The position numbers and the translations under genes were made by a program. Positions 2,712-18,367 of a stretch of DNA of 18,367 nucleotides are shown piece after piece. The DNA lies in the UHGV virus genome UHGV-0120185; one strand, written 5' to 3'. The notes under the pieces are model-generated. The model was not told where the DNA came from and ran no database searches. It was given only the letters and a program-made list of their open reading frames with translations. Origin of the DNA: a virus. How positions within the stretch are numbered: the stretch's first letter is position 1; each line of letters opens with the position of its first letter.

Positions 2712-2713
2712 TG

Positions 2714-2914
2714 CTACTCCCCCCACAACTGAATCATTTCTCGTTTCTTCTTCTCCGGCTCCGGCATCTCCACTTCCTGCCCGGCGTCCAGAAATACCTG
2801 CTGACAGAGTCCGGGGTTGGCATCCAGCACCTTTTCGGTGACGCCCTGCGTCGTGCCGTAGTACCGGAAACAGAGCGAATCCACGGTGTCGCCTTCCAGT
2901 GCCTTCACTTTCAT
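2714..2914 (-). CDS. X: P2 gpX-like tail protein X (LysM-like)
   Basis: 'LEGDTVDSLCFRYYGTTQGVTEKVLDANPGL' matches the gpX family signature as recalled. 66 aa from internal Met; start overlaps the gpL stop by 1 nt. Confidence 0.75.
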   Translation of the reverse strand: MKVKALEGDTVDSLCFRYYGTTQGVTEKVLDANPGLCQQVFLDAGQEVEMPEPEKKKREMIQLWGE

Positions 2915-3417
2915 CAGCACAACTCCGCAAAGATTCGCGGGCGGCACAGAATGTCAGAGATGGCCCAGCTCACATCACGCCACAAATCCGATGTCTGTAT
3001 ATCCAGAGCGTCCGCCCGGCGGTCGCCCTTGTCCGTTGTGTCTGCATCACGATAACGCTCCAGAATCAGGGCGCGCGTGGCGGTATAAACAGCATTGCGC
3101 CAGTGCCAGAGATTGACGCTTTCTCCGTTAATTACAGGGGCCGGAACATCGGCCAGCGTCTGATGGCCAGCCGCCTGCTGTTCCTGCTGCCACGCTTCCA
3201 GCTCGCGGGTAACGTGTGCCACGGCCCCGGTGGCGGTATGCAGCAGGCGGGAGGTGGTCACACGGCCCGGCAGTCGTACCGCCAGACGCAGCTCACGCAG
3301 CACAATATCCGGCCAGAATGCACCCGCTGAAATACGGGTATCACCATCATCGGTATCGGTGATGTCGTCCTCTGCGGGTCCGGGGTTGGTTCTGGCAACC
3401 ATACTCATGGGGTTCAC
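2914..3417 (-). CDS. L: P2 gpL-like head completion/stabilisation protein
   Basis: 'LADVPAPVINGES', 'ERYRDADTTDKGDRRADALD', 'DLWRDVSWAISDI' align with P2 gpL as recalled. RBS AGGAG 8 nt upstream of ATG at 3417. Confidence 0.8.
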   Translation of the reverse strand: MNPMSMVARTNPGPAEDDITDTDDGDTRISAGAFWPDIVLRELRLAVRLPGRVTTSRLLHTATGAVAHVTRELEAWQQEQQAAGHQTLADVPAPVINGESVNLWHWRNAVYTATRALILERYRDADTTDKGDRRADALDIQTSDLWRDVSWAISDILCRPRIFAELC

Positions 3418-3509: not shown

Positions 3510-3977
3510 TTAACCGCGCTTCGCCTTCTGCGTCGCGGTGGTTTTTCGTGTTGCAGGCTTCCGCGTTGTCTTTTTACTTTTGCTGCTTTCGTCCTGCGCC
3601 TGCGGTGTGCTGGCATCTTCTGGTGCGGCTGCGGAATCGGCTTTTTTCAGGGCGCGGGAAAGGGTTGCAATCTCGCGTTTCACACCTGCGTTCGGGTTAC
3701 GGCGTTTGATGCCGTCATAACTGCTATTCGTGCGCGCAATTGGCCCGGTGGTGTCCAGGAGGATTTTTTCGCCTTTCTGGTCGGTCACGCCGATCACGTT
3801 AATTCTTTTCGTAAATTCGGTACTTTCCTTTGAGGCGTTTTCAAAACGCTGCTGCACCGCGGGTTCCACGGTAAATCGCGATACCAGTGCAGATACCGGG
3901 ATATTGTTAAGCGACGCCTGCTGCGCCATATAGCAACCCAGCTTGTTGCGGGTAATATCTGACATCACCAGATTCAT
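3510..3977 (-). pseudogene. in-frame fusion of capsid gpN N-terminus with small terminase gpM C-terminus (deletion remnant)
   Basis: Residues ~30-95 ('FTVEPAVQQRFENASKESTEFTKRINVIGVTDQKGEKILLDTTGPIARTN') match the N-terminal region of P2 major capsid gpN. Residues ~105-155 ('AGVKREIATLSRALK...TTRKPATRKTTATQKAKRG') match the basic C-terminal tail of gpM. Only 155 aa, where N plus M normally span about 600 aa. Confidence 0.6.
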
Positions 3978-4000
3978 AAAAAATTTGCTCCTTTGTCTTA

Positions 4001-4837
4001 TCAGAAGTCAGCCAGCTGGTCGGAGGCTGCGCCCGTTGCGGTGAAGCGGTTCTGCGGATCGCCGTCCTGCGTGCGCAGTTTTTCCGTCAGAGCTGTCAGC
4101 TCTGTGGTCAGTGACGTGATTTTCTTGCTGTCCTGCTGATGGCGGGTTTCCAGCACATTAAAACGGTCGATAATGTCGGCCTGTGACGTTGCGACGCCTT
4201 CCACCGCTTCCTGAATACGGGAGAAACTGGCGTCATCCGCTTTGCGGCCACGACCAATAATCCCCATTACGCGGTTAAACCACTGGGTGCCTTCTTCCTG
4301 GCGTTGTTCTGCCATTTCGATGATTTCAGACTCGATGGCTTCGGAGATAAGCGGTGCTTCACCCTGGATACTGTTGAACGTCATCACCGCCTGACGCTGC
4401 TGTGCCGTGAATTTCAGGCGCTCAGTGCCCAGGCTTGCCGGGGTGTCGGTCATCGCCAGCCCGACCAGATAGGCGCGCCCGTTAACGGAGAACTGCGGGT
4501 GCAGTTCGATACTGGAATAGATTTTCTTGCCGTCAGCGACAAGCTGCTTCATGCGCTCGGTCGGTTCGATTTCTGCATACAGCGCAGTACGTCCGGCCAG
4601 CGGGCCTTCCGTAATATCTTCCGTACTCAGCGCGGTGACATCGCCCATTGCGGAAAATTCGCTTGACGGGCATGGCGAGAGATAGTGCTCAACGTTCACG
4701 CGGGCAGCGTAAACATCCGGGTTGAAGTTCTCGGCGGCTTCACGCAGATGTACCGGGCTGATTTCGCGGCCATCAACAGTTGATCCGGAGACAGCCACGC
4801 GAAACTTTTTGCGGGATGTCTTTTTTTCATTAGCCAT
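4001..4837 (-). CDS. O: P2 gpO-like capsid scaffolding protein
   Basis: 'YLVGLAMTDTPASLGTERL' and overall collinearity with P2 gpO as recalled. Start at second Met (4837) with RBS GAGGGG ~9 nt upstream; 278 aa. Confidence 0.85.
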   Translation of the reverse strand: MANEKKTSRKKFRVAVSGSTVDGREISPVHLREAAENFNPDVYAARVNVEHYLSPCPSSEFSAMGDVTALSTEDITEGPLAGRTALYAEIEPTERMKQLVADGKKIYSSIELHPQFSVNGRAYLVGLAMTDTPASLGTERLKFTAQQRQAVMTFNSIQGEAPLISEAIESEIIEMAEQRQEEGTQWFNRVMGIIGRGRKADDASFSRIQEAVEGVATSQADIIDRFNVLETRHQQDSKKITSLTTELTALTEKLRTQDGDPQNRFTATGAASDQLADF

Positions 4838-4991
4838 AGTTTTTGCCCCTCTGACTGGTTCTTCAGTCATGATGGCAAAGCGTAACAGGCTGATACAAAG
4901 GGCTTTTGTTGTAAGAAAACGGCCAGAACAGGGGGTTAAGGAGAACGGTTTCGCGCGCGGGTAATCTTCCTGTAATTACTCAGGGGGAGCA

Positions 4992-6743
4992 ATGATTCAG
5001 GACGCTTTTGTGCGCCAGCGTGCGCGGCAACTTTACTGGCAGGGTTATCCGCCCGCAGAAATATCACGTCTGATGGGAATAAACCCGAACACGATTTATG
5101 CGTGGAAAAAACGCGACCAGTGGGATGAAACGCCACCCGTGCAGCGTGTCACGCAGTCCATCGATGCGCGCCTCATCCAGCTTACTGAAAAACAGAATAA
5201 AACAGGCGGTGACTTTAAGGAAATAGACCTGCTGACCCGGCAGCTTAAAAAGCTGCATGATGGCCAGCCGGATGTGACGGCCGCAGGAAAGAAAGGCCGG
5301 GCGAAAAAACTCAAAAATCATTTCACGCCGGAACAGATTGCCGCACTGCGGGAAAAAATCATCAGCAGGCTGGAGTGGCATCAGCGGGGCTGGTTTGACA
5401 CCCTGACCCTTTGCAGGGAAGCCGGGATACGTAACAGGATGATCCTGAAATCCCGACAGATTGGGGCGACCTGGTATTTTGCACAGGAAGCTCTGCTGAT
5501 GGCGCTGCGTGACGATGTGGCGCAACCTTACCAGCGTAACCAGATTTTTTTGTCTGCGTCGCGTCGTCAGGCGTTCCAGTTTAAAAGCATTATTCAGAAG
5601 GCCGCGGCTGAAGTTGATGTGGAGCTGAAAGGGGGCGATAAAATCATCCTCTCCAACGGCGCAGAGCTGCATTTTCTCGGCACTTCTGCTGCGTCGGCAC
5701 AGTCCTATACGGGCAATTTTTATTTTGATGAATTTTTCTGGGTCAGTCGCTTTGCTGAACTGCGCAAGGTGGCTGGCGCTATGGCAACCCTCAGCGGACT
5801 GCGGCGCACCTACTTTTCCACGCCATCCACCGAAACGCACGAGGCATACGCCTACTGGAACGGCGACCGCTGGAACGAGAAAAAGGCCTCGCATAAACGC
5901 CAGCGTTTTTCTGTGGACTGGAAAACGCTGCATAACGGGCTTATCTGCCCTGACCGGACGTGGCGGCAAATTGTCACGCTGGAAGATGTGGTTAATCACG
6001 GCTGGAAACACACCGATATCGACGAAATTCGTGATGAAAACACCGAAGATGAGTTCCTCAATCTCTATATGTGTGAGTTTGTCCGCGAAGGGGAATCGGC
6101 ATTTAACCTGAATATCCTGATTGGCTGCGGTGTTGACGGATACGACGACTGGAAAGACTGGAAACCTTTTGCTCCCCGCCCGATGGGGAATCGTCCGGTA
6201 TGGATTGGGTATGACGCAAACGGCAGCAGTGGAAACGGCGACAGCGGCGCTGTGTCCGTGGTGGTTCCTCCGGCTGTTCCTGGAGGCCGTTTTCGAACGG
6301 TGGAGACGCGACGCGTTCAGGGGCTGGAGTTTGAAGAACAGGCCAGAGTCATTGAAGAGTTCACGTGTCGCTACAACGTGGAACACATCGGCATTGATGT
6401 GACAGGCGGGAACGGGGAGGCTGTTTATCAGATAGTGAAACGGTTTTTCCCTGCTGCTATTCCGTACACCTTCACGCTGTCATCAAAACGGTCGCTGGTA
6501 CTGAAAATGCTGCAAATAATGCGTGCCGGGCGGTGGGAATACGATCGCGCCGAACGCGAGCTGGTCGCAGCCTTTAACGCCGTGCGTAAGGTGAAAACAC
6601 CGGGCGGCTTTATCACTTACGAAACGGACCGCGCGAGGGGGATCAGCCACGGCGACCTTGCGTGGGCAACCATGCTTGCTGTCATTAACGAACCAATTGG
6701 CGGCGAAGGAGAAAACGAGCGTTTCACGGTTATGGAGTTCTGA
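4992..6743 (+). CDS. P: P2 gpP-like terminase ATPase (large) subunit
   Basis: 583 aa, divergent from O as in P2. RBS GGGGGAG before ATG. Terminase-like nuclease region 'WIGYDANGSSGNGDSGAVSVV'. Confidence 0.9.
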   Translation: MIQDAFVRQRARQLYWQGYPPAEISRLMGINPNTIYAWKKRDQWDETPPVQRVTQSIDARLIQLTEKQNKTGGDFKEIDLLTRQLKKLHDGQPDVTAAGKKGRAKKLKNHFTPEQIAALREKIISRLEWHQRGWFDTLTLCREAGIRNRMILKSRQIGATWYFAQEALLMALRDDVAQPYQRNQIFLSASRRQAFQFKSIIQKAAAEVDVELKGGDKIILSNGAELHFLGTSAASAQSYTGNFYFDEFFWVSRFAELRKVAGAMATLSGLRRTYFSTPSTETHEAYAYWNGDRWNEKKASHKRQRFSVDWKTLHNGLICPDRTWRQIVTLEDVVNHGWKHTDIDEIRDENTEDEFLNLYMCEFVREGESAFNLNILIGCGVDGYDDWKDWKPFAPRPMGNRPVWIGYDANGSSGNGDSGAVSVVVPPAVPGGRFRTVETRRVQGLEFEEQARVIEEFTCRYNVEHIGIDVTGGNGEAVYQIVKRFFPAAIPYTFTLSSKRSLVLKMLQIMRAGRWEYDRAERELVAAFNAVRKVKTPGGFITYETDRARGISHGDLAWATMLAVINEPIGGEGENERFTVMEF

Positions 6744-7789
6744 TGAGCAGAAAAAATAAAAAAGTGCGCATGAGTTCACGCATTGATCTCGCTGATGCGC
6801 TCAGGAAAGAATCATCGCTCAGTGCATTCACATTTGATGGTCCTTATCGCCTGACCGGGCATGACCTGCTGGACAATATGTACTGTGCTGATAACGGGCG
6901 GTGGTATGAAACACCGGTGGACTGGTACGGTCTGGCAAGAGCTGCCCGGCAAACGTCCTGGCATCAGTCTGCGCTTTACTTTAAGCGCAATGTATTACTC
7001 GGTTGCTACATCCCGCACCCGCTGCTTTCCCGGCAGGATTTCTCGGCGCTGGCGCTGGACTGGTTTGTGTTCGGTAACGCATTCCTTGAGCTTCGAAGCA
7101 ATATGCTCGGCGAACCGCTTAAATTACGGCACGCCCTGGCGAAATACATGCGACGCGGAAGCGATCTTGAATCATGGTGGTATGTGCAGGATGGTAAGGA
7201 TGCGTTTCAGTTTCGCCCAGGCAAAGTGTGCCACCTGATGAATCCTGACATTAACCAGGAAATCTACGGCATGCCGGAATATCTTGGCGCATTACTCTCG
7301 GCCAGCCTGTCTCATTCGGCGGACATGTTCAGAAAACTGTATTACGACAACGGATCCCATGCCGGGTGCATCATCTACATCGGTGCAGCGCAGGTAAACC
7401 GCGAAAGCATGGACTCCCTGAAAGAAACGTTACAGGGTGCGCGTGGTGGCGGTGCGTTTAAAAACGTGCTCATTCATGCGCCCAACGGGGGCAAAGAGGG
7501 GGTGCAAATTTTGCCGTTCCAGCAGATCACCGCAAAGGATGAGTTCATGAATGTTAAGGCGGCATCCCGTGATGATGTGCTGGCTGCGCACCGCGTTCCG
7601 CCGCAACTGATGGGGGCGATGCCGGGCGAAAAAAGTGCGTTTGGTGATGTGGAGAAGGCCGCGCGGGTTTACGCAATTAACGAACTGATGCCCGTCATGG
7701 AGGCCATGAAGCACATCAATGACTGGCTTGGCGAAAAGGTGATCCGCTTTAACCCTTACGCACTGTTAGACACCCAGCCCACATCCTGA
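6743..7789 (+). CDS. Q: P2 gpQ-like portal protein
   Basis: 348 aa immediately after P with overlapping TGATG junction. Size and position match P2 Q, reading toward cos. Confidence 0.85.
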   Translation: MSRKNKKVRMSSRIDLADALRKESSLSAFTFDGPYRLTGHDLLDNMYCADNGRWYETPVDWYGLARAARQTSWHQSALYFKRNVLLGCYIPHPLLSRQDFSALALDWFVFGNAFLELRSNMLGEPLKLRHALAKYMRRGSDLESWWYVQDGKDAFQFRPGKVCHLMNPDINQEIYGMPEYLGALLSASLSHSADMFRKLYYDNGSHAGCIIYIGAAQVNRESMDSLKETLQGARGGGAFKNVLIHAPNGGKEGVQILPFQQITAKDEFMNVKAASRDDVLAAHRVPPQLMGAMPGEKSAFGDVEKAARVYAINELMPVMEAMKHINDWLGEKVIRFNPYALLDTQPTS

Positions 7790-8280: not shown

Positions 8281-8619
8281 CTATAGCTTTGATGCAGGCT
8301 GGGCTAGGTCTCCTTTGATGCCAGTGTTTACAACCTGACAAGCCTCTTTGAGTACCCAGTCAACAGCGTCTTTCCATGCTCCGGTTTCGGCTGGCGGATT
8401 CTCACGCTTTACCAGTTCATAGAATCGTACTGCTCTAACCAGTCCATCTGACGGTTTTGCCTGTAGTGCAGCCTGAGCTATGCGGTATGCCTGGAGCATA
8501 CGGGCGTCGTTGATATCCATTCCGAACGGAATTTCTGATGATTGTGATTCTGCATCTTCAAGCCTGGCAATTTCTTTACGTAAAAAGTATTTCAACTCTT
8601 GTTTTTGTTTTCTGTTCAT
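8281..8619 (-). CDS. hypothetical protein (112 aa), partner of the ClpX-zinc-ribbon-like protein
   Basis: ATG overlaps the upstream gene's stop (ATGA), followed by the terminator. No family recognised. Confidence 0.55.
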
Positions 8620-8948
8620 GCGTTTTTTCCCTTTTTGTCTGTCACTTCTCTCCTGATAATTTCATTGCACAAATCCACGCACTCATTGCAGATGCAAACA
8701 GACGGTCCGGCAATCACCTTTGTGACTTCGTACTGAGATTTATTGCAGAAGCTGCAATAAATCGTCTCCTCGCCTGAAGTCCATGTTTTGCTGGTTTCGC
8801 CAGACATCAGTTGTTTGAGGTCTTTTTCACGACGAAGAACTATCTGGCCACATTCAGCTATTTTTTGGATGTTGACATTTTCTTCTTTCGCCAGCGCTTC
8901 CATCCGCTCAATCAGTCGCTGCGCTTTTTCTCTGTCAATGTGTTGCAT
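8616..8948 (-). CDS. small protein with C-terminal ClpX N-terminal-type C4 zinc-ribbon domain
   Basis: C-terminal '[39 protein letters not shown]' versus ClpX N-domain '[39 protein letters not shown]' as recalled (about 30/40 identical, all four Zn-ligand Cys kept). N-terminal ~60 aa unrelated and helical. RBS AAGGGGG before ATG at 8948. Confidence 0.75.
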
Positions 8949-8982
8949 TGTGTCCCCCTTGTTTATGTTCCCGGATTAAAGT

Positions 8983-9006
8983 CATCAGGGCGGATGCGCC
9001 CTGATG
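8983..9006. promoter_or_regulatory. perfect 10-bp-stem hairpin (CATCAGGGCG-gatg-CGCCCTGATG) between parR and the zinc-ribbon gene
   Basis: Read directly. The arm CGCCCTGAT recurs at 9026-9034 inside the parR 3' end. No U-tract on the coding strand. Confidence 0.35.
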
Positions 9007-9011
9007 TTGTG

Positions 9012-9323
9012 TTATTCGGGAAATAACGCCCTGATATTTCCGGCCATCCGACTGGTTATCTGTGAGGTTGGTACTGGCTGTGACGCGGGGCGTTCTGTCC
9101 TGGTTTGTGTCACTGATAACGCCTCATCGTCAGCCCATGCAGCCAGTCGGTAAGCCTCTGCCGGATTCATTTTCAGAAGTGCCAGCCCGGCCAGAAAAGC
9201 CACACGTTGGCCGCTTTTGCGGGCTTCTGGTGTAAGGCTGTCCAGCCAGGTGCATGCTTCGCCTTCGTTCTTGACGGCGGCGGGCTTCAGATAGAAACTT
9301 ATCCGTCTGGTTGGTGTCGTCAT
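9012..9323 (-). CDS. parR: ParR-like centromere-binding protein (type II partition)
   Basis: 103 aa from internal Met 4 nt after the parM stop, RBS AAGGAG. 'RRISFYLKP...LDSL...RVAFLAGLALLKMNP...NIRALFPE' parallels plasmid R1 ParR as recalled. Confidence 0.7.
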   Translation of the reverse strand: MTTPTRRISFYLKPAAVKNEGEACTWLDSLTPEARKSGQRVAFLAGLALLKMNPAEAYRLAAWADDEALSVTQTRTERPASQPVPTSQITSRMAGNIRALFPE

Positions 9324-9327
9324 TGGT

Positions 9328-10287
9328 TTACTCCTTGTCCATTGCGTACAGCCCATTAACCAGAGCAAACTGTGGCACCCCGTCCGCGATGAAAGTCGCA
9401 TTAACTCCGCAGGCTTCGCGGATAGCGGGTGCCACAATCTCCGCCCCGCCACCGACAACCATCACCCGCCCGTAACCCGAAAAACCCGCCAGCGCGCGGA
9501 TCACTCGTTGTTTCAGTGTTTCTTCCTTTTCACGAATAACCGCCATCAGGCTGTCGTAATGCGCGTCATTGTGGATGTGCTGGCGCAGCCAGGCTTCATC
9601 ATGGCGATGTTCGATAATGGTATTGGCGATGTGGTGACTGGTGCGCATACCGTTAGTGGCCATCACCGACAGTACGGCATCGGCCATCAGAGAAACGCCT
9701 ACGTGTGGATCGCAAAACACCTGGCTGATACCTGCCAGTTGCCCCTGAACCTTTGCCACATCCAGCGTGGTTCCGCCCAAATCCACAATCAGCAGGGATT
9801 CAAACGGACTCATGTCAGCCAGTGCCTTAAAGCCAGCCGGAATGGATTCAGGCATAACCCGCACGTTACGGATAGTGAATGCTTCGCCGTTCTGGTACTC
9901 CACCGGGCGCATAACGTTCGCTTTTTTGCGGTTGATGTTGGCCATGTCCGGCTGTGCGTTTGTGTCGAAATACTCGCTCAGTGGCAGGGTGACAACCACA
10001 TCCACCTCCTGTGGCGTGATGCCTGATTTGACCAGCGCGTGATGAATGGCAATTACATTCACATCGCTGTACTGGTATTGCGTGTCGGTCGTCTGGACAA
10101 ATCGATCGCTGACCGGATCAAAACCATAGCGCACGCCATCAAGCATGTAGTTTGCGGGCTGCATGCCACCGAACGGCGCAGACCATTCCGATTTGAAGCT
10201 GTTCGGGCTGATGGCGTTGCGGCGTTCGCCGTTCTCAGTCCATGCCAGCTTGATGTTGGTGGAGCCGTCGTCGATACAAATTTTCAT
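9328..10287 (-). CDS. parM: ParM-like actin-type partition ATPase
   Basis: 'MKICIDDGSTNIKLAW', 'YQYSDVNVIAIHHAL', 'RKKANV', 'VMPESIPAGF', 'LLIVDLGGTTLDV', 'VMVVGGGAE', 'ALVNGLY' are collinear with plasmid R1 ParM/StbA as recalled. RBS AAGGA before ATG. Confidence 0.9.
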   Translation of the reverse strand: MKICIDDGSTNIKLAWTENGERRNAISPNSFKSEWSAPFGGMQPANYMLDGVRYGFDPVSDRFVQTTDTQYQYSDVNVIAIHHALVKSGITPQEVDVVVTLPLSEYFDTNAQPDMANINRKKANVMRPVEYQNGEAFTIRNVRVMPESIPAGFKALADMSPFESLLIVDLGGTTLDVAKVQGQLAGISQVFCDPHVGVSLMADAVLSVMATNGMRTSHHIANTIIEHRHDEAWLRQHIHNDAHYDSLMAVIREKEETLKQRVIRALAGFSGYGRVMVVGGGAEIVAPAIREACGVNATFIADGVPQFALVNGLYAMDKE

Positions 10288-10316
10288 GTCGATTTTCCTT
10301 ATGTTGATTAATTAAT

Positions 10317-10429
10317 CGTTTACGGGGTTTTTAAATCCCGTTTTTGCCTGTTTTATGCGCGCTTCATATATCGCGGCGCGTTTTTTGCTCATTTACGGGT
10401 TTTGTGAATCCCGTTTCTGTCTGTTTTTT
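10317..10429. repeat. two ~38-bp direct repeats 73 bp apart, candidate parC-like centromere/operator
   Basis: Copy 1 at 10317-10354 (cgtttacggggtttttaaatcccgtttttgcctgtttt), copy 2 at 10390-10429 (catttacgggttttgtgaatcccgtttctgtctgtttttt), ~85% identical. Each holds an ACGGG...CCCGT hairpin. Copy 1 is in the A-parM gap, copy 2 inside the last codons of A. Confidence 0.5.
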
Positions 10430-13186
10430 GTTTCCACTGGTCAGGCTACCCCGCAGCAGGTCTGCTTTGCGGCGGGCGCGTTCAGTGGTTTCACTGATTC
10501 TCTGTGCGTGCTCTGCGTCACGGATGGCGCGCAGCATGTCAGAAAGCACGGTAACGGGGGTTTTCATGGTGTTCTGGTCCTGCTGAAGTGTGGATGCCAG
10601 GCGTGCGGCGGCTTCGGGGTCTGATGCCCCCAGCTGTTCCAGATAGCCGGCGACCGGGTTATGGCGGATCTCCGTGCTGCTTACGCCGTGATTACGGCTC
10701 AGGCGCTGCCAGAGCTGCGTGATTCGGCTGTCCGGGCGGGTATCCGGTTTGCGTACAATTTCAAATCCCTGCGGTGCAATGATGCTGCCGTCAACGTACA
10801 GGCTGCCGCCCCGTAACAGGTGCTGCATCTGCTGTTCACCGATATGCAGGCCGAGAGATTCGGCAGACTCCCGCCATTCTTTAGCGAGTAATTCGTGGTT
10901 ATCAGGCAAAGGCCGCTGCTGTTTGCGGCTCTGTGTCCAGCTCTGCATTTCATCACTGCTGTTTTTTGCCTGTTTATCATGAAGCGAACGCATCAGCGCC
11001 CGGCGTTCGTGCCGTTTCAGTGAGCGCATCCATTCGTTCACTTCAACGCCATCAGGGAGCTGCGGCCACGGTGCTGGCCGTTCTTCCGGCTGTTCTGCCC
11101 CGTTGTTGTTCGTTTCCTGTACACGGGGACAGTTATTGCCACGAGTCCAAGGGGCGGCAGGGCCGCCCTGAAGGTCAAAACCATTTTCGCGGGCGCTGTC
11201 TTCCGCTTCCGGTTTACGTCTTACCAGCTTCCAGTTATCCGGATGCGTGCACACACGGGAGGATTCCCCGATGAGTGGTGACCAGATCCCGTAAATCTGT
11301 ACGCTCTGTTCGCCGTAATCGTTCAGCTCATCTGCGAGGTCGTAGGCGGTGCGAATCAGGTAGTCCTTGCGCGGAACAAGTACGCCACCCTGTTTTTCAA
11401 TGTAGGTGGCAAAACACCCGGCATCAGCGGCAGCAAGAACCGCATCCATTGCGTCATCCTTCAGCCGTTGCGGGCCTTCCGGGCTGCGTGCCATCTGGCT
11501 GGCAAGGCGGCGGAGTTCACGCCACACCTGACGGGAGGGAATGCCAAAGAACTGGAACTGGCGGACCCGGTGAAGGCGCGCCCAGCCGATGGCGCGTTCC
11601 ACGCTCTCGGCCATTGATTTTCCGGTTTCGTGGTCAACGCGTGGTTTGCCTGTTTTCGGGTCGATGCCATCCACGGCCCGGCTGTCCAGGTTTTTTCCGA
11701 TGTAGGTCGCGATATAGCTGGTTGGTGTGCCTTTTGAGCCGTCGACATACTCCGCCTTAAAGCGCGGAGTAATATCATTGCCCAGCTCGTGGCGGTCTTC
11801 CTGAATGGCAATATCGCGGGTGATGGCCACGATGCTGTCGATTTCTTCCGGATGAGCAAAGACCATCATATGCCAGTGCACGGTGCCGTCATGGTGAGGC
11901 TCCACCGTGCGGATGCCATACCAGCGAAGACCGTCGCGGTTCAGTTTTTTGCGGACCGCCGCAAAAAACGTGTTAACCAGGTAATCGCTGGAGTCGCGCA
12001 TGGTGGCCCCGTTCCATCTGGGATTCGGATGACCGTTCTCCGTTGTGGCGTGGTATTTTGACGGGCAGGTGACAGTCAGAAACACCGCTTTGTCGCCACG
12101 GGCTTCAGCCAGAAGTTCCAGCCCCTTCATGGTGGCCATCATTTCTGCCTTACGGTGAACCGGGTTACTTACTCCCGCGTAATACACCGTCTCGAGATCA
12201 ATCGTGAACCCGTCTTCATTTTCCAGCATGAAACTTTTCAGGAAATCGCGTGTTTTCTCGCGCTGTGCGCGAAACTCGCTTAACGCGTCCTGGCTCAGAT
12301 AGGGCGATGTTTTTCTGGAAACCAGACAGGCGGCGCGGAGTTGTTCTTCTCTCCACTCGCAACGTAACAGCCACAGTTTGCGTTTCCACCATTCCGCACA
12401 GGTCAGGCGAAGGATTGCGCCCGGCAGCAGTTCTGTGTCCGGTTCGTGCCTCCGGTCTTTGTCTGTTGTCAGTGCGTCATAATGCGGAGGCATGGCGTGT
12501 AAGTGTAACGCCATGCGGGCCAGCATCTGATACGCCTTCAGCGTTACATCCATGGTCAGCTCGCCATCAGTCGCGCCAAAACCATCGCAGAGTTTTTCGA
12601 AGGTGCTGCTGAACATCGCCGCCGTCATGGTGGCCAGCGTCTGTATCTGGTGTTTGTTGAGTTGCGGCAGGTAAAGCAAATCGTCCAGGCGTTCACGTCC
12701 GGCAAGGGAGCGATAACCCGATGTCAGCCAGCGGTGATCGGTGCGCTCCAGACGTTCGAATATTTTGCGCAGGGTCCCACGCGCATAGCGTTCTGCCTGC
12801 CTGGCGTTTTTTCCTTTCTGACGATCGGCTTCCTGTTTTTTGCGCAGGAAGGAGAGGTGGCGAATAAGCGGATCGCGCAGATAGGACGGCAGCAGGCGCA
12901 GTGAGGCCATGGCCTCATCTACCGCGCCGCGTGCCTGTTTTCTGGCGTCTCCTGCCAGTGTGATTGTTTTGTCCTGTTTTTCCTGTGCGTCCAGGCTTTT
13001 ATTAATCAGGTTGCCCAGCGGCGTGGCGGAGAACGCCGCATCAGCCATTTCCTGGCGGCGCTCGTTCTCTGCCCGGTAGGCATCCAGCCAGGAGGAAAGC
13101 GCGGATTCAGGAGCGGGGATCCCCGTTCCTTCACGCCCCACTGCGTGGCGCGGTTGTTGCCAGTCCCTGATGTACTCTGCCGTCAT
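10364..13186 (-). CDS. A: P2 gpA-like rolling-circle replication initiator (HUH endonuclease)
   Basis: HUH motif 'VHWHMMVF' and twin-tyrosine motif 'SYIATYIGK'. 940 aa, position between early genes and the accessory locus as in P2. Confidence 0.85.
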   Translation of the reverse strand: MTAEYIRDWQQPRHAVGREGTGIPAPESALSSWLDAYRAENERRQEMADAAFSATPLGNLINKSLDAQEKQDKTITLAGDARKQARGAVDEAMASLRLLPSYLRDPLIRHLSFLRKKQEADRQKGKNARQAERYARGTLRKIFERLERTDHRWLTSGYRSLAGRERLDDLLYLPQLNKHQIQTLATMTAAMFSSTFEKLCDGFGATDGELTMDVTLKAYQMLARMALHLHAMPPHYDALTTDKDRRHEPDTELLPGAILRLTCAEWWKRKLWLLRCEWREEQLRAACLVSRKTSPYLSQDALSEFRAQREKTRDFLKSFMLENEDGFTIDLETVYYAGVSNPVHRKAEMMATMKGLELLAEARGDKAVFLTVTCPSKYHATTENGHPNPRWNGATMRDSSDYLVNTFFAAVRKKLNRDGLRWYGIRTVEPHHDGTVHWHMMVFAHPEEIDSIVAITRDIAIQEDRHELGNDITPRFKAEYVDGSKGTPTSYIATYIGKNLDSRAVDGIDPKTGKPRVDHETGKSMAESVERAIGWARLHRVRQFQFFGIPSRQVWRELRRLASQMARSPEGPQRLKDDAMDAVLAAADAGCFATYIEKQGGVLVPRKDYLIRTAYDLADELNDYGEQSVQIYGIWSPLIGESSRVCTHPDNWKLVRRKPEAEDSARENGFDLQGGPAAPWTRGNNCPRVQETNNNGAEQPEERPAPWPQLPDGVEVNEWMRSLKRHERRALMRSLHDKQAKNSSDEMQSWTQSRKQQRPLPDNHELLAKEWRESAESLGLHIGEQQMQHLLRGGSLYVDGSIIAPQGFEIVRKPDTRPDSRITQLWQRLSRNHGVSSTEIRHNPVAGYLEQLGASDPEAAARLASTLQQDQNTMKTPVTVLSDMLRAIRDAEHAQRISETTERARRKADLLRGSLTSGNKKQTETGFTKPVNEQKTRRDI

Positions 13187-13192
13187 AGTGAT

Positions 13193-13558
13193 TTACTTCG
13201 TCATGCCATTCAGGGTGTCGCGGCAGACTGTAGCCAGCCGCTGAATTTCCAGCACGGTGTCTTCTGTGTCGGCATGGCGATGTGTGATGCGGATGCTGTC
13301 GGCAATCACATCGACGATTGCAGAGGATGGGCGCTGGTAAATGCCAATAACGGACGGGGTGCCACCTTCAATGCGGTAAAGCCTGTAATTTCCCTCGTGG
13401 CTGTCAATCATGTAGCGACCATCAATAACAATCTTTCCGTCAGCGAGCTGCGGTACAGGCAGGGATTTCAGGTACATGTCATAACGTTCACGCACGCGAA
13501 CGGCAAGATCACGCTCTGTGTTGAGCAGGTATTCAAGAAAGTCGTTGGCGAGAATCAT
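13193..13558 (-). CDS. hypothetical early-operon protein (121 aa)
   Basis: RBS AAGAGGA before ATG; ends 7 nt before the A start. No family recognised. Confidence 0.5.
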   Translation of the reverse strand: MILANDFLEYLLNTERDLAVRVRERYDMYLKSLPVPQLADGKIVIDGRYMIDSHEGNYRLYRIEGGTPSVIGIYQRPSSAIVDVIADSIRITHRHADTEDTVLEIQRLATVCRDTLNGMTK

Positions 13559-13699
13559 TGCGGCAATCCTCTTGTTACAGATGTGCGAAGGCCTCCCGCC
13601 ACAAGGTGCAGGAAAGACCCGGAACAGGAATTAATGGAGTTTGTTTTGCTGCCGGATGAGCTGCTGAAGCCCGACGTGGTTTCCGGCAGTTGGAGGTGC

Positions 13700-14146
13700 T
13701 CATGCTCTGATTTCCCTCAGTAGCTGGTTGAACATCTGGGTTAGTGGGTTGCTACACCCAAACGGCATCGGGTTTACCTGATAAGAAAAGCGACCGCCTG
13801 TTTTGCGCTCTTTTCTTATGACTGAACCGCTGCGCCAGAGACGGCGTAGCTCCGCATTAATGGTTGTGGTTGGTGTATTCAGTGCTGCGGCGATTTCTCC
13901 ACCGCTACAACCCGGATTGGCAGCGATGTAGTCCAGAATGGTCATCTGCGTGACTCCTGTACCTGTCTGATAAGATTTACCTGCACCACGTTGGTGGCGC
14001 AAAAAGTAAGTGCCGTCAGTGAGATAGATGTGATATGCATCCTTTTCTGAACGGTGTTTGTCGATTGTGGTAATCAGGCGTTCGTCAACTTCGTATTCAC
14101 GTCCTTTGGAGGTGAAACGAACGACGGGAAAATGCTTAATTGCCAT
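13700..14146 (-). CDS. hypothetical early-operon protein with putative winged-helix DNA-binding region (148 aa)
   Basis: Start at internal Met (14146) with strong RBS AAGGAGG 5 nt upstream. 'MTILDYIAANPGCSGGEIAAALN...INAELRRLW' is HTH-like. Confidence 0.5.
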   Translation of the reverse strand: MAIKHFPVVRFTSKGREYEVDERLITTIDKHRSEKDAYHIYLTDGTYFLRHQRGAGKSYQTGTGVTQMTILDYIAANPGCSGGEIAAALNTPTTTINAELRRLWRSGSVIRKERKTGGRFSYQVNPMPFGCSNPLTQMFNQLLREIRA

Positions 14147-14232
14147 TACGCCTCCTTGGCGTGTGCGAATACCTCCGCGAATGCGGATTGTTTTCACATT
14201 TTCTTATTTAACCTGGGGTCTTATTTGCGCGG

Positions 14233-14346
14233 TTATTCTTCAGTGAAAAAGCGTTCAATCTTTTTTACTGAATTAATAATTCGCATAATCCCAATGGCGC
14301 AGACCACCGAAATAATCAGAACAAGCCATGAGATAAATATACTCAT
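14233..14346 (-). CDS. possible small hydrophobic peptide (37 aa)
   Basis: 'MSIFISWLVLIISVVCAIGIMRIINSVKKIERFFTEE': one TM helix plus basic tail. ATG overlaps the stop of the upstream 81-aa gene (ATGA). Below the track's size cut-off. Confidence 0.3.
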   Translation of the reverse strand: MSIFISWLVLIISVVCAIGIMRIINSVKKIERFFTEE

Positions 14347-14588
14347 GCGATATTTCCCAGCTTATACGGTTCAATATGTTCCCCGCATTCTGCGGCATAG
14401 ATCAGCTCGGAAAGTTCGTTAAGTGCATCCAGATCATCAGCGTAAAAAGCCACGTCATACAGACTTCGGATTGCTCTGGTCAATGAGTCACGGGCCGCAC
14501 GTTCAGCATGAGCGCCTGATGCACTTAAGCGAAAATAAAAACGCTCAAGTGCTTTGTTAATGAGAGTTTTATATTCTTTGCCCATCAC
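14343..14588 (-). CDS. hypothetical early-operon protein (81 aa)
   Basis: ORF with RBS AAGGG; GTG/ATG start ambiguity at 14588/14585. Confidence 0.45.
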   Translation of the reverse strand: MMGKEYKTLINKALERFYFRLSASGAHAERAARDSLTRAIRSLYDVAFYADDLDALNELSELIYAAECGEHIEPYKLGNIA

Positions 14589-14596
14589 AACGCCCT

Positions 14597-14875
14597 TTAA
14601 TCTGCTTTCTGAATTTCAGCTTCTGAATCCATACAAATAATTTCGATATAGGGTTCATCGCCATTAACCTGACGTGCCTTTTCAGCTTCGCTAATGATTT
14701 CTCGTACGGTCTGGTACGGAAGCTCCACAGTCAGGCGCGTACCGTTCAGATAAACGTAAGTAGCTGCGTTTTTTTCGGATGGAACAACTACGTCAATGGC
14801 TGATGCGCGTAATAACAGTTCACCGCGAAAATCAATAAAACGGATAAATACACCTTGTGCATGCTCTTTGGTCAT
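14597..14875 (-). CDS. hypothetical early-operon protein (92 aa)
   Basis: Start at internal Met with RBS AGGTG; the upstream extension of the track ORF would overlap the neighbouring gene. Confidence 0.45.
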   Translation of the reverse strand: MTKEHAQGVFIRFIDFRGELLLRASAIDVVVPSEKNAATYVYLNGTRLTVELPYQTVREIISEAEKARQVNGDEPYIEIICMDSEAEIQKAD

Positions 14876-14885
14876 AAAGCACCTG

Positions 14886-15236
14886 TTATAAATCAGCCTG
14901 TTTAATAAAACTTTGCCCGCGAAGCAGACGATCAACCGTGCGAAGTGCTTCGTATAATGTGAAATCCTGCCCGAAGTGATTGTCGCCGCAGTTCAATGCA
15001 AAAATGCGGTTTCCGGTAAACGGATTGCGTGGGCATTTGTGGACCACGATTCCAGCTTTCTCAATCAGCCAGGCATGCTCGCCGATTTGTTTTACAGCGT
15101 GGCCATCCGGTGTTGCGTGCGTCTCGTTCAGGTTATAGCGACTGTTACTACGTGATGCACTGGTAGCGACGTGGTGTACATGGCGTTCTACGCCATTACG
15201 AAATTTGGAGTATGGATTATTAGCGTTTTTTTTCAT
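14886..15236 (-). CDS. hypothetical early-operon protein (116 aa)
   Basis: ORF directly after the Cox-like gene on the same strand. No family recognised. Confidence 0.45.
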   Translation of the reverse strand: MKKNANNPYSKFRNGVERHVHHVATSASRSNSRYNLNETHATPDGHAVKQIGEHAWLIEKAGIVVHKCPRNPFTGNRIFALNCGDNHFGQDFTLYEALRTVDRLLRGQSFIKQADL

Positions 15237-15257
15237 GATGGTGCTCTGTTCATTGTT

Positions 15258-15461
15258 TTAGCTGTTAGCCAAAGCGTCTTTTAACATCGCCACAAGGTTT
15301 ACTTCAGGCTTTTCCATTTTGGCGCGTTTGGGTCGGATAATAATTCGACCGTCAGCCAACATCTTTTTGCATGTATTAAGAGGGATACCTGTTATCTCTG
15401 CATATTTCTGCAGGGATACATAGGGGGCATTCACATTGATATTGATGGTTATACCTGACAT
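15258..15461 (-). CDS. Cox/Apl/AlpA-like small HTH excisionase-regulator
   Basis: 67 aa; 'LQKYAEITGIPLNTCKKMLADGRIIIRP' resembles the Cox/AlpA HTH. Early position in the operon divergent from the repressor, as P2 cox. Confidence 0.55.
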   Translation of the reverse strand: MSGITININVNAPYVSLQKYAEITGIPLNTCKKMLADGRIIIRPKRAKMEKPEVNLVAMLKDALANS

Positions 15462-15477
15462 CCCACTAGCCTCCTGA

Positions 15478-15684
15478 TCAGGAAGATTTGTTTTGTTCTT
15501 TCTGGGTTAGCTCTAGGCCGCGAAGGAAGATCATGCGCGCCATGTTAGAGGATGAGCGTTGTTCTTTAGCTGCCATTTCATCAATGACGGCTCGCTCCTC
15601 GAGGGACAGCCGAAGTGCCAGTCTTGGACCTGTGGCGGTGTTACGCGGAATGCGTGATCTGGAATCGTGAAGAACTTGTTTCAT
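15478..15684 (-). CDS. small putative ribbon-helix-helix-like DNA-binding protein (68 aa), first gene of early operon
   Basis: 'LRLSLEERAVIDEMAAKEQRSSSNMARMIFLRGL' has an RHH-like beta-alpha-alpha pattern. Begins at the switch region. Confidence 0.45.
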   Translation of the reverse strand: MKQVLHDSRSRIPRNTATGPRLALRLSLEERAVIDEMAAKEQRSSSNMARMIFLRGLELTQKEQNKSS

Positions 15685-15759
15685 AGTGGTATATTGTGAT
15701 CATCTAATAGCTCGTGAAATCATTTTGGTATCAAAAAAGATACCTGTCAAGGTTTTTGT
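15685..15759. promoter_or_regulatory. lysis-lysogeny switch region with divergent promoters and operator-like palindromes
   Basis: 75-bp gap between divergent genes. Palindrome GGTATC-N6-GATACC at 15727-15744; TGATCA at 15697-15702; TATATT at 15690-15695; TTGACA on the minus strand (15750-15745) next to the palindrome. Confidence 0.5.
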
Positions 15760-16164
15760 ATGAAAAATGATATTGGTCAGCGGTTGCGTGAGGAAAGGGA
15801 AAGATTGGGACTTAGTCAAGTTGCCATGAGCGACATTGGTGGAGTCAAAAAGCTAACTCAGCTTAGATATGAGAAAGGAGATAGCTTTCCTGATGCTGCG
15901 TATTTGGCAGCGCTGTCTCGTTTTGGCCTTGATGTTCAGTATGTTGTGTTGGGAATTCACTCACCTGAAACTTATAACGATGATGAGCAGGAGTTGATTA
16001 CTCGCTTTCGAGCAGCTTCGTTAGATGTGAAAAATGCGGTGATTGGGGCTTTAAAAGGTGCGATCAGTGAAAAGGAAACTCAGCCATCAGGACGTGAGTT
16101 AAATATTTCTGGTGGTAATAACCGTATCGCTGGTCGTGACTATAACGAAACTAAGGGTAGGTGA
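15760..16164 (+). CDS. XRE-family HTH immunity repressor (C/CI-equivalent)
   Basis: N-terminal HTH 'RLREERERLGLSQVAMSDIGGVKKLTQLRYEKGDSFPDAAYLAALSRFGLDV'. Divergent from the Cox-like gene and upstream of int, as P2 C. Confidence 0.8.
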   Translation: MKNDIGQRLREERERLGLSQVAMSDIGGVKKLTQLRYEKGDSFPDAAYLAALSRFGLDVQYVVLGIHSPETYNDDEQELITRFRAASLDVKNAVIGALKGAISEKETQPSGRELNISGGNNRIAGRDYNETKGR

Positions 16165-16179
16165 TAGTAGGGAGGTGAC

Positions 16180-16830
16180 ATGGCCGTCAACTCAAACGGT
16201 TCAAACAATCGCGTTGCTGGGCGTGATTTTCACGAAAAGAATATTCAGATAGAGCGATATGATGGTTCTCAGACCGTCAATATCGCAATCCCTTCGAATA
16301 ATGATGATGACGATCGCCCTTTGCTTAAGGCTCAGCGTAAGGAGCTAAATAGCTTGGTTGCTGCTATTGCAGAAGCTAGCAATACTGAAGCGTTTATTAT
16401 TTGGCAAAAAGTACATGCGGAGATTGGTGTAGCTGGTATTGATGATATGACAGTAAATCAATATAAAACAGCGGAGAGTTTTCTGCATGCAATGCTTGAG
16501 CGATGTAAAGATCATGATGCCTGTAAGGCTCTTGTAAGTTTATTACTACGTAACAGTGAAGACTGTGGACTTCGACAAAAACTTCTGCGGTATTGCCATA
16601 TCAATTTCGGTACAGGACGTTTAAACGATCTTACTCGTTCTCAGTTACAGTCTGCATTGTCGTGGTTAGAGCAACAATCGGCATCAAGCCACACAGAGAG
16701 TTCGACCTTACCAGAAGTCCGACTTCGTGCTTCAGAATTAATCCGACTTTATCCAAAAGAAATAATATTCTTTATCTGCGTAGGGGTTTTGGTAGGCGGT
16801 GTCATTTCTAGGGCGTTTTTTAATTTGTAA
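16180..16830 (+). CDS. tail-anchored membrane protein of unknown function (216 aa), lysogeny-operon moron
   Basis: Strong RBS GGGAGG before ATG. Single C-terminal TM 'IIFFICVGVLVGGVISRAFF'; acidic DDDD stretch. N-terminus repeats the repressor C-terminal motif. AT-rich relative to the backbone. Confidence 0.65.
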   Translation: MAVNSNGSNNRVAGRDFHEKNIQIERYDGSQTVNIAIPSNNDDDDRPLLKAQRKELNSLVAAIAEASNTEAFIIWQKVHAEIGVAGIDDMTVNQYKTAESFLHAMLERCKDHDACKALVSLLLRNSEDCGLRQKLLRYCHINFGTGRLNDLTRSQLQSALSWLEQQSASSHTESSTLPEVRLRASELIRLYPKEIIFFICVGVLVGGVISRAFFNL

Positions 16831-16859
16831 TCTTACTTGAGCTAAATTGAGGTAATGAT

Positions 16860-17207: not shown

Positions 17208-17212
17208 CTAAA

Positions 17213-18214: not shown

Positions 18215-18320
18215 AAAGTGGCGATAAAAAGTGACAATAGATTCAAATGGCGTTGTATAGAGCCATTTTCAAAGTTAATAAAATCATAAGGTTATGATTT
18301 ATAAATGGTGGTTGATAGTT

Positions 18321-18367
18321 TTTAAAATCCCTCGGCGTTCGCGCTGTGCGGGTTCAAGTCCCGCTCC
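18321..18367 (+). other. att core: 3' part of a class II tRNA-Leu (anticodon UAA, leuZ-like), truncated copy continuing past the window end
   Basis: TTTAAAATCCCTCGGCGTTCGCGCTGTGCGGGTTCAAGTCCCGCTCC matches the anticodon-loop-to-T-arm portion of enterobacterial tRNA-Leu(UAA) as recalled. T-arm GCGGG-TTCAAGT-CCCGC and long variable arm are visible. Upstream sequence cannot form the anticodon stem or acceptor/D arms, so this is a partial copy. Confidence 0.6.

What the first reader, a model, noticed from the sequence alone, without database searches (positions are those of the whole stretch)
3510..3977. In-frame N'-'M deletion fusion: major capsid and small terminase genes missing
Between gpO and gpL, P2 has N (capsid, ~357 aa) and M (small terminase, ~247 aa). 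Here there is one 155-aa ORF whose N-terminal part matches gpN and whose C-terminal part matches the basic tail of gpM, implying a ~1.4-kb deletion that kept the frame. The element therefore cannot build its own capsid or recognise its DNA for packaging. It is probably a defective prophage kept for its accessory genes, lysis cassette or lysogeny module.
Basis: partly seen in the sequence, partly recalled or inferred. Interest (0 to 1): 0.55.

Follow-up and report, generated by a model that had tools for sequence, protein, structure and literature searches.

The report
Capsid–terminase deletion in P88-like prophage
A 1,431-base in-frame deletion in a P88/P2-like E. coli prophage has fused the start of the capsid gene to the end of the small-terminase gene, which is ordinary prophage decay except that the capsid-side breakpoint is a spot where many independent deletions begin.

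Summary
The 155-aa ORF (3510-3977, minus strand) is residues 1-96 of the major capsid protein gpN joined in frame to residues 205-266 of the small terminase gpM. The two share an Asn-Pro-Asn overlap.

Against phage P88 and the closest E. coli prophage (99.7% identical), the window lacks exactly 1,431 bp (477 codons). The deletion lies between two AACCCGAA octamers. No other N or M copy is in the window.

It is not an assembly artefact. The identical protein and DNA occur on 16 contigs from independent samples, including a 5-Mb chromosome. It is rare: none of 5,426 complete E. coli genomes has the junction, and about 1,040 carry this head module intact. A sub-lineage has a further 14-bp frameshift in gpL, which shows continuing decay.

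"Kept for accessory genes" is untested.

The unexpected part is the capsid-side breakpoint (CCGTAA|CCCGAA). It is shared by at least ten different deletions with different partners, in both directions and on several allelic backgrounds. The same N'-'M junction sits on at least three near-junction haplotypes, so it probably arose more than once. The cause of this hot spot is unresolved.

The parts
3510..3977 (-). 155-aa N'-'M fusion ORF. It keeps the start codon and upstream context of gpN and the stop codon of gpM.
3690..3977 (-). gpN' part: codons 1-96 of the P2-family major capsid protein. This is the N-terminal stretch that aligns to P2 gpN residues ~4-92 of PDB 7jw1; the remaining ~254 residues of the fold are absent.
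   Evidence: tblastn gpN 1-96 = 3977-3690; Pfam PF05125 positions 4-82 of 327; P88 gpN vs 7jw1 E=9e-83
3510..3698 (-). 'gpM part: codons 205-266 plus stop of the small terminase, i.e. its basic, low-complexity C-terminal tail only.
   Evidence: blastp fusion 94-155 = gpM 205-266; no PF05944 hit on the fusion
3691..3698 (-). Deletion junction: the 8-nt microhomology AACCCGAA (Asn-Pro-Asn codons) present once in N and once in M of intact relatives. The adjacent CCGTAA|CC is the recurrent breakpoint.
4001..4870 (-). gpO capsid scaffold/protease, intact (relatives annotate 278 or 289 aa).
   Evidence: PF05929 E=3e-90
2914..3417 (-). gpL head completion protein, intact here (164-167 aa). The 14 nt at 3151-3164 are deleted in a sub-lineage carrying the same fusion (L004, L007), truncating L to 88 aa.
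   Evidence: PF05926 E=2e-45
4992..6743 (+). gpP large terminase, intact.
   Evidence: Terminase_6N/6C/Terminase_5
6743..7789 (+). gpQ portal, intact.
   Evidence: PF04860
1453..2914 (-). Tail protein X (2714-2914), holin (2388-2711), M15 endolysin (1999-2391), LysB/LysC spanin-like genes. All are as in intact relatives.
8281..18367 (.). Rest of the prophage left arm. Contents: ClpX-type zinc-finger gene (8616-8948), ParM (9328-10287) with an adjacent partition/stability gene, replication endonuclease gpA (10364-13186), early genes, HTH repressor-like gene (15760-16164), a 216-aa gene annotated as membrane protein in strain 15A plus DUF2511 genes, integrase (17213-18214), and the att core resembling a tRNA 3' end at the window edge. 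One SNP and no indel relative to the strain 15A prophage.

Best explanation
The window is the left half of a P88-like (Xuanwuvirus, P2-family) prophage of E. coli integrated next to yecA. A single deletion removed 1,431 bp between two copies of the octamer AACCCGAA: one at codons 94-96 of the capsid gene N, the other at codons 205-207 of the small-terminase gene M. Both octamers encode Asn-Pro-Asn in the same phase, so the product is an in-frame chimera of N residues 1-96 and M residues 205-266 (shown).

The event is a RecA-independent, microhomology-mediated deletion: slipped mispairing or break-and-join (inferred from the junction). The chimera lacks about 254 of 350 capsid residues and the whole Pfam-recognisable part of the terminase small subunit. 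The prophage therefore cannot make capsids or recognise its DNA for packaging, and is defective for particle production (inferred from the essential roles of N and M in P2).

Integrase, repressor, replication, lysis and, in the 5-Mb assembly, tail genes remain. After induction the element would at best excise, replicate, lyse the cell and release tails, or depend on a related helper phage (inferred). The lineage is real, recent and rare, and is already decaying further in head genes.

The N-side breakpoint is a recurrent deletion endpoint in P88-like prophages, so this particular fusion probably arises repeatedly. The nearest good microhomology partner of that fragile site is the octamer in M.
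For: Gene content and order are Q-P | O-[fusion]-L-X-holin-endolysin. Identity to phages P88, Chuche, PhiR44_2 and others is 98%, always in two pieces spanning about 3,731 bp against 2,301 bp of query. The two pieces overlap by 8 nt at the junction, and the difference between their offsets to P88 is 1,431 bp. The only indel against the 99.7%-identical prophage of strain 15A is this 1,431-bp gap. The exact protein is on 16 contigs from NCBI, ENA and Logan samples, and their DNA is 100% identical to the window apart from a 14-bp gap in two of them. That gap lies between 7-nt repeats GCTGGCC and truncates gpL. P88 itself is a mitomycin-C-inducible, plaque-forming myovirus with a 50-55 nm head (PMC5285337), so the intact form of this module is functional. 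Recurrent breakpoint.
Against: No experiment shows that the prophage is non-productive. A co-resident P2-like prophage could supply N and M in trans, and I could not inspect the rest of the host genome. The cos site was not located; a P2 cos motif recalled from memory gave no match, although the Q-proximal region is unchanged relative to strain 15A. Whether the chimera is expressed or stable is unknown. Recurrence of the same junction rests on protein-level haplotypes for most alleles; DNA was obtainable for only two.
Confidence: 0.9

Rival explanations
1. The junction is an assembly artefact: a chimeric or collapsed contig in a low-coverage metagenome, and the real prophage is intact.
For: The window is a metagenome contig of about 5.8x coverage (record name NODE_1687_length_18367_cov_5.78). 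No complete RefSeq E. coli genome has the junction.
Against: The same junction with identical flanks is present in a 5.05-Mb NCBI assembly and in seven other listed contigs from ENA and Logan samples. Seven further cluster members carry the same junction on other alleles. An 8-nt repeat cannot mislead assemblers that use k of 31 or more.
Confidence: 0.01
2. The deletion is selected rather than neutral. One version: the headless prophage is being domesticated as a tail-only killing particle (tailocin-like). Another version: the N'-'M chimera interferes with capsid assembly or packaging of superinfecting P2-like phages. Either would explain why in-frame fusions at this point recur.
For: The same in-frame junction occurs on several allelic backgrounds. 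Another in-frame N-M fusion (P0009) and an in-frame internal N deletion (P0033) share the N breakpoint. All lesions seen in this lineage hit head genes (N, M, L), while lysis and tail genes are intact. R-type tailocins are P2-tail derivatives (established knowledge).
Against: Most other deletions from the same breakpoint are out of frame or remove lysis and tail genes too (P0025, P0026, P0027, P0035, P0020). One retains the opposite side and deletes O and N' (DLI.5a), which argues for a mutational bias and against selection for an N' product. Portal, large terminase and scaffold genes are still present. Sequence identity among copies is 100%, so no selection signal can be measured. The lineage is rare (0 of 5,426 complete genomes).
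Confidence: 0.07
3. The element is not dead but helper-dependent. With cos, replication, portal, large terminase and tail genes intact, it is packaged when a related P2-family phage supplies capsid protein and small terminase, behaving like a satellite or defective interfering genome. That would also let the deletion allele spread and recombine into other backgrounds.
For: Everything except N and M matches intact relatives. 53 of 54 SNPs against strain 15A lie in a 2.8-kb patch around the deletion. L144 shares only -158 to +76 around the junction with the window, showing recombination around the junction. About 20% of complete E. coli genomes carry a P88-like head module, so helpers are common.
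Against: There is no evidence of packaging. None of at least 120 IMG/VR viral contigs with this N segment has a junction directly after CCGTAA at the hot spot, and the P88-like phage genomes listed in the phage collection all span the intact length. Haplotype differences 6-11 codons from the junction are hard to explain by homologous exchange.
Confidence: 0.1
4. All N'-'M fusions descend from one ancient deletion whose flanks were later reshuffled by homologous recombination; the event is not recurrent.
For: L144 and the window share an identical 234-nt block around the junction and diverge about 2% outside it, as expected for a shared origin plus flanking recombination.
Against: Cluster members differ at gpN residues 85, 90 and 91 (S/T, I/T, K/N), only 15-33 nt from the junction, and each haplotype also exists in intact N genes. 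The same N breakpoint is used by at least nine other deletions, so recurrence is expected.
Confidence: 0.3

Closest known systems
Escherichia phage P88 (Xuanwuvirus P88, Peduoviridae; NC_026014) and P88-like prophages of E. coli
   Same: 97.7-98.2% nucleotide identity across O, N', 'M, L and X. Same gene order Q-P | O-N-M-L-X-holin-endolysin. Same ParM/partition, ClpX-zinc-finger and gpA genes. P88 is inducible and plaque-forming (PMC5285337).
   Different: The window lacks P88 nt 15452-16882 (N codons 97-350, the N-M spacer, M codons 1-207). It carries a different integrase/immunity end and a SASA/DUF6645 gene between the lysis genes and gene R.
Bacteriophage P2 gpN (major capsid, PDB 7jw1) and gpM (small terminase)
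   Same: P88 gpN aligns with P2 gpN over its whole length (E=9e-83). The fusion's first 96 residues belong to that family (PF05125).
   Different: Only the N-terminal ~27% of the capsid protein and the C-terminal ~23% of the terminase subunit remain. No solved structure matches gpM.
Cryptic or defective P2-family prophage remnants in E. coli
   Same: Loss of morphogenetic genes by deletion while other prophage genes persist. One such remnant (O-N'-'D-PIN_4-ogr, lying between a btuCED-like gene cluster and pheT plus an HU/IHF-family gene) uses the same N breakpoint.
   Different: This element has lost only two genes and is otherwise co-linear with a functional phage, so it is an early stage of decay.
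Spontaneous deletions between short direct repeats
   Same: Endpoints lie in an 8-nt direct repeat. The second lesion in the sub-lineage lies between 7-nt repeats.
   Different: One endpoint is reused with partners sharing only 0-4 nt of homology up to 19 kb away, which short homology alone does not explain.
R-type tailocins (P2-tail-derived bacteriocins)
   Same: A P2-family element without a capsid gene but with lysis genes and, in L004, tail genes.
   Different: Portal, large terminase, scaffold, head-completion, integrase and replication genes are all still present. No evidence of domestication.

Membership tests
P2-family major capsid protein (Pfam PF05125, HK97 fold) | Match over essentially the whole ~327-position profile / ~350-aa protein | tested here: not met
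   Only residues 15-95 match profile positions 4-82 of 327; gpN 97-350 absent
P2-family small terminase gpM (Pfam PF05944) | Presence of the Phage_term_smal domain | tested here: not met
   No PF05944 hit on the fusion. Only gpM 205-266 is retained. Intact relatives carry PF05944.
P88-like (Xuanwuvirus) prophage | High nucleotide identity and co-linearity with phage P88 over the head, lysis and replication modules | tested here: met
   97.7-98.2% identity in two co-linear pieces; gene content
Complete (particle-forming) P2-family prophage | Intact Q, P, O, N, M, L head and packaging genes | tested here: not met
   Q, P, O, L intact; N and M truncated and fused. No second copy in the window or in L004.
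Complete (particle-forming) P2-family prophage | Production of infectious particles on induction | not testable with these tools
   Needs induction, electron microscopy and plaque assay of an isolate of this lineage
R-type tailocin | Tail and lysis genes retained, all head, packaging, integration and replication genes lost | tested here: not met
   Portal, TerL, scaffold, gpL, integrase and gpA are all present
P4-like phage satellite | No structural genes of its own; own primase/helicase and capsid-size/helper-control genes | tested here: not met
   Carries P2-type portal, terminase, scaffold, tail and gpA genes
DNA-invertase (Gin/Cin/Hin) crossover site at the breakpoint | Two 12-nt half-sites of the form ...AAACC NN GGTTT... 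around a 2-nt core, with crossover in the core | tested here: not met
   P88's own site is TTCCTGTAAACC GA GGTTTTAGATAA. By my own base-by-base comparison the N site shares at most 5 of 12 positions per half-site. The junctions do not fall in a common core, and the partner sites are not gix-like.

The most novel reading that the evidence does not exclude
The capsid gene of P88-like prophages contains a site-specific fragile point (CCGT/AA/CCCGAA, P88 nt 15444-15451). DNA is repeatedly broken or switched there by an unidentified agent, such as a nuclease, a recombinase or a replication block. The result is a stream of headless derivatives, of which this N'-'M fusion is the commonest nearby outcome. 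Left-retaining and right-retaining products both keep the AA dinucleotide, as expected for a short staggered cut.
Probability: 0.3. Interest if true: 0.6.

Novelty: new member of a known kind. Interest (0 to 1): 0.33.

Why it matters
As a single locus it is a clean, datable example of the first step of prophage inactivation: two essential head and packaging genes lost in one in-frame event, then a second head-gene frameshift in a sub-lineage. Databases label the chimera simply 'P2 family phage major capsid protein', so prophage-completeness tools could score the element as intact. The wider point, if it holds, is that inactivation of a very common E. coli prophage family (about 20% of complete genomes) is not random. 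It is channelled through one few-nucleotide site in the capsid gene. That makes the mechanism of prophage domestication experimentally approachable.

Tried and rejected
- **Assembly artefact.** Rejected: identical junction in 16 independent contigs.
- **A second N or M copy in the window or the 20-kb L004 locus.** None found.
- **The junction in complete genomes and phage records.** None of 5,426 E. coli genomes has it, and the P88-like phage genomes listed span the intact length.
- **IS element at the breakpoint.** The IS600 seen in related prophages sits in gpP, not in N.
- **Invertase pseudo-site.** No resemblance to the phage's gix-like site, and the crossovers are not in a common core. 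The L018 junction lies a few nt from a gix-like site but is offset by one base from a conservative crossover.
- **Exceptional hairpin.** The ACGGC-n7-GCCGT stem folds no better than shuffles (z 0.6 to -0.7).
- **Similarity to attP, or to P2 cos/ori motifs recalled from memory.** None.
- **Simple motif-specific nuclease.** An identical 12-mer CCGTAACCCGAA in ParM (other strand) has no junctions among the ParM truncations and fusions. AACCCGAA is over-represented in P88 (6 vs 1.27), but this was a post hoc motif, and the three occurrences I translated (N, M and the large-terminase gene) all encode Asn-Pro-Asn.
- **More junctions in IMG/VR, JGI metagenomes and GTDB representatives.** Zero relevant hits; the three metagenome hits had no BLAST similarity to P88, and the 17 GTDB hits came from non-enterobacterial taxa and were not examined further.
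- **Not tried.** CRISPR spacer search against the site; structure prediction of the chimera.

Full report
**What the window is.** The 18,367-bp window is the integrase-to-lysis half of a P2-family prophage, read in reverse orientation.
- Genes present: integrase (17213-18214), an HTH repressor-like gene, early genes, replication endonuclease gpA (10364-13186), ParM with an adjacent partition/stability gene, and a ClpX-type zinc-finger gene.
- Then come portal Q (6743-7789) and large terminase P (4992-6743) on the + strand.
- On the - strand lie scaffold O (4001-4870), the 155-aa ORF (3510-3977), head-completion L (2914-3417), tail protein X, holin, M15 endolysin and LysB/LysC. A SASA/DUF6645 gene runs off the window start.
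- The closest sequenced phages are Escherichia phage P88 and relatives (genus Xuanwuvirus) at 97.7-98.2% identity.
- P88 is a mitomycin-C-inducible, plaque-forming myovirus with a 50-55 nm head (PMC5285337).
- The closest chromosome is E. coli O111:H21 strain 15A (99.7% identity), where the prophage lies next to yecA.
- The window itself is an ENA metagenome contig, ERZ651856 NODE_1687.

**The observation.**
- Pfam sees only the first quarter of the P2 capsid family in the ORF: residues 15-95 against profile positions 4-82 of 327.
- BLASTP against P88 proteins gives residues 1-96 = gpN 1-96 (E=2e-66) and residues 94-155 = gpM 205-266 (E=4e-37). The overlap is Asn-Pro-Asn.
- At DNA level every intact relative aligns in two pieces whose ends overlap by 8 nt in the window (3691-3698, coding strand AACCCGAA). 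The pieces lie 1,431 bp further apart in the relative.
- A global alignment with strain 15A has that 1,431-bp gap as its only indel.
- The missing stretch is P88 nt 15452-16882: N codons 97-350, the spacer, and M codons 1-207. That is 477 codons, so the frame is kept because both octamers encode Asn-Pro-Asn in the same phase.
- No other N or M fragment exists in the window or in the 20-kb locus from the chromosome-scale assembly.

**Real or artefact, common or rare.**
- The exact 155-aa protein is on 16 contigs from independent NCBI, ENA and Logan samples. These include a 5.05-Mb contig (GCA_949768945.1) and at least one contig named as a human gut metagenome.
- Their DNA is 100% identical to the window over up to 14 kb. 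The exception is two contigs (L004, L007) that lack a further 14 bp between GCTGGCC repeats in gpL (window 3151-3164), truncating L to 88 aa.
- The deletion is therefore genuine, recent and clonal, and the lineage is continuing to lose head functions.
- It is rare. No complete RefSeq E. coli genome (0 of 5,426) has the junction, while about 1,040 carry this head module with the extra 1,431 bp. The P88-like phage genomes listed in the phage collection span the intact length.

**Consequences (inferred).**
- P88 gpN aligns over its whole length with P2 gpN of PDB 7jw1. The chimera keeps only the N-terminal 96 residues.
- It keeps only the basic tail of gpM and lacks the PF05944 domain.
- N and M are essential for head assembly and DNA packaging in P2 (established genetics). 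The prophage should therefore be unable to form capsids or to recognise its DNA.
- Everything else in the window matches strain 15A: one SNP outside the head region and no indel. L004 shows the tail genes R to G downstream.
- The expected phenotype is excision, replication and lysis with free tails, or dependence on a helper. None of this was tested.
With zero divergence among copies there is no signal of selection.

**Origin of the junction.**
- The cluster at 90% identity has eight members with the same junction (…KRRNPN|AGVKREIA…).
- They differ at gpN residues 40, 49, 58, 62, 72, 85, 90 and 91, and in the gpM tail. Each N haplotype is also found in intact N genes.
- Differences at residues 85-91 lie only 15-33 nt from the junction, too close for ordinary homologous exchange. 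At least two or three independent origins is the more economical reading.
- One other allele for which DNA was available (L144) shares just -158 to +76 around the junction with the window and is about 2% divergent beyond. Recombination around the junction also occurs.
- 53 of the 54 SNPs between the window and strain 15A fall in 2670-5492, a mosaic patch around the deletion.

**The recurrent breakpoint.** The homology search with the chimera returned many other truncated or fused capsid proteins that diverge from gpN at residues 93-97.
- *Left-retaining junctions checked at DNA level* (all N sides end at …AAACGCCGTAA|CC, P88 15444-15451):
  - to M nt 16875 (this window; microhomology AACCCGAA);
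  - to M nt 16750 (ACC);
  - to N nt 15882 (AACC, an in-frame internal deletion);
  - to gene S nt 19825 (AA);
  - to gene G nt 25134 (GTAA);
  - to gene U nt 27907 (GTAA);
  - to gene D nt 34187 (AA). This last is a remnant on 17 contigs and in one complete genome, lying between a btuCED-like gene cluster and pheT plus an HU/IHF-family gene;
  - to a point beside a gix-like site upstream of the invertase gene.
- *Right-retaining junction.* The complete genome of strain DLI.5a has the converse product. The partition/stability gene beside parM is joined without microhomology to |AACCCGAAT…, deleting Q, P, O and N 1-93.
- *Crossover position.* All left-retaining junctions are compatible with a crossover at CCGTA|A or CCGTAA|. 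The right-retaining one is at CCGT|AA.
- *Independence.* They come from different sequencing projects and three local alleles (GGCACAAAACG, GGAACAAAACG, GGCATCAAACG).
- *Background.* By my reading of the sequences, about a dozen junction-type truncations lie elsewhere in the first ~250 codons of gpN. Truncations of ParM, used as a control gene, are spread over codons 103-247 with at most two at one codon.
- *The M-side point.* GAA|CCCGAA is reused in an unrelated 12.3-kb deletion from an SPFH gene.
- *Caveat on ascertainment.* The first set was retrieved with a query that ends at residue 96, which favours short N' proteins. That bias does not favour residues 93-97 over 35-92. The DLI.5a and SW071610 cases came from an unbiased nucleotide search of complete genomes.

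**What the hot spot is not.** The following were tested and are not supported:
- an IS element at the site;
- a pseudo-site for the phage's Gin-like invertase;
- an unusually stable hairpin;
- similarity to attP, or to P2 cos or ori motifs recalled from memory;
- a nuclease recognising the 12-mer CCGTAACCCGAA, since the identical 12-mer in ParM is not a breakpoint.

At least 120 IMG/VR contigs carry the capsid segment followed directly by the intact base at this site, and none carries a junction there. JGI metagenomes and GTDB representatives added nothing. The cause remains open. Candidates not tested are a staggered cut by a homing-type or defence nuclease, CRISPR self-targeting, or a replication arrest site.

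**Comparison and verdict.** The element works like, and is, a defective derivative of a known temperate phage.
- It passes the membership test for a P88-like prophage.
- It fails those for an intact capsid protein, an intact small terminase, a complete prophage, a tailocin and a satellite.
- The finding as written is correct and, taken alone, ordinary: one more decaying prophage, a new member of a known kind.
- What raises it slightly above routine is that its capsid-side endpoint is a shared, bidirectional deletion hot spot in a prophage family carried by about a fifth of E. coli genomes. This is unexplained and testable.

Noticed in passing
window 3691-3705 (P88 NC_026014 nt 15444-15451); loci L013, L017-L020, L023, L145, L146: At least ten different deletions in P88-like prophages share the gpN endpoint CCGTAA|CCCGAA. 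Their partners lie 0.4-19 kb away (M twice, N, S, G, U, D, a gix-adjacent point, and the partition/stability gene beside parM), with 0-8 nt microhomology, in both directions. Cause unknown.
   Followed up: partly
window 3151-3164 (gpL); L004 pos ~10814, L007 pos ~4652: Two contigs with the same N'-'M fusion, including the 5-Mb assembly, have an extra 14-bp deletion between GCTGGCC repeats. It frameshifts gpL to 88 aa, a second head-gene lesion in a sub-lineage.
   Followed up: yes
window 2670-5492: 53 of 54 SNPs relative to the otherwise identical prophage of E. coli O111:H21 15A cluster in this 2.8-kb stretch around the deletion, with one SNP in the other 15.5 kb. This is a recombinant (mosaic) patch covering X-L-'M/N'-O and the start of P.
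   Followed up: partly
L168/L169 (P0061), P88 nt 4603-4608 joined to 16878: An independent 12.3-kb deletion in another P2-family prophage fuses an SPFH/Band_7 early gene to the same gpM point (GAA|CCCGAACG). It gives a 235-aa SPFH-'M chimera annotated as an SPFH-domain protein.
   Followed up: partly
L021 (P88) nt 9662, 14054, 15444, 16875, 18063, 32586; window 3691, 5082, 9474: The octamer AACCCGAA occurs 6 times in P88 against 1.27 expected (0 of 100 shuffles reach 6). The three occurrences I translated (N, M and the large terminase) encode Asn-Pro-Asn. The motif was chosen post hoc, so the significance is uncertain.
   Followed up: partly
L003 1-11555 and L012 10333-24000 (NZ_CP077477.1, strain 15A): In the strain 15A assembly the prophage region appears as a large inverted duplication: two mirror-image copies of head, lysis and tail genes meeting at the invertible tail-fibre segment. 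It is either a real rearrangement across the invertase sites or a misassembly.
   Followed up: no
window 2-1456 (-): A 625-aa gene with DUF1737, SASA (sialate O-acetylesterase-like) and DUF6645 domains sits between the lysis genes and tail gene R. It is absent from P88 itself, so it looks like an accessory (moron) gene, possibly acting on surface carbohydrates.
   Followed up: no
ParM gene, window 9328-10287 (proteins P0091-P0104): ParM of P88-like prophages is also found fused or truncated in many assemblies (partners: tail protein I, baseplate J, gpO, Ead/Ea22, a macro-domain gene). Junctions lie at codons 103-247, six of nine in codons 204-224. Deletion endpoints in these prophages may be generally non-uniform.
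   Followed up: partly
L017 (SRR9668659 contig): One contig carries three separate deletions relative to P88 (15447>16750, 17177>21741, 21924>22727), each at 2-5 nt microhomology. It is a heavily rearranged derivative, or a minor variant population within the sample.
   Followed up: no
window 18300-18367: The window ends in a sequence resembling the 3' part of a tRNA (…GCGGGTTCAAGTCCCGCTCC), which I read as the att core next to the integrase. ARAGORN finds no complete tRNA at the equivalent place in strain 15A, whose tRNA-Leu/Cys/Gly cluster lies at the other prophage end.
   Followed up: partly
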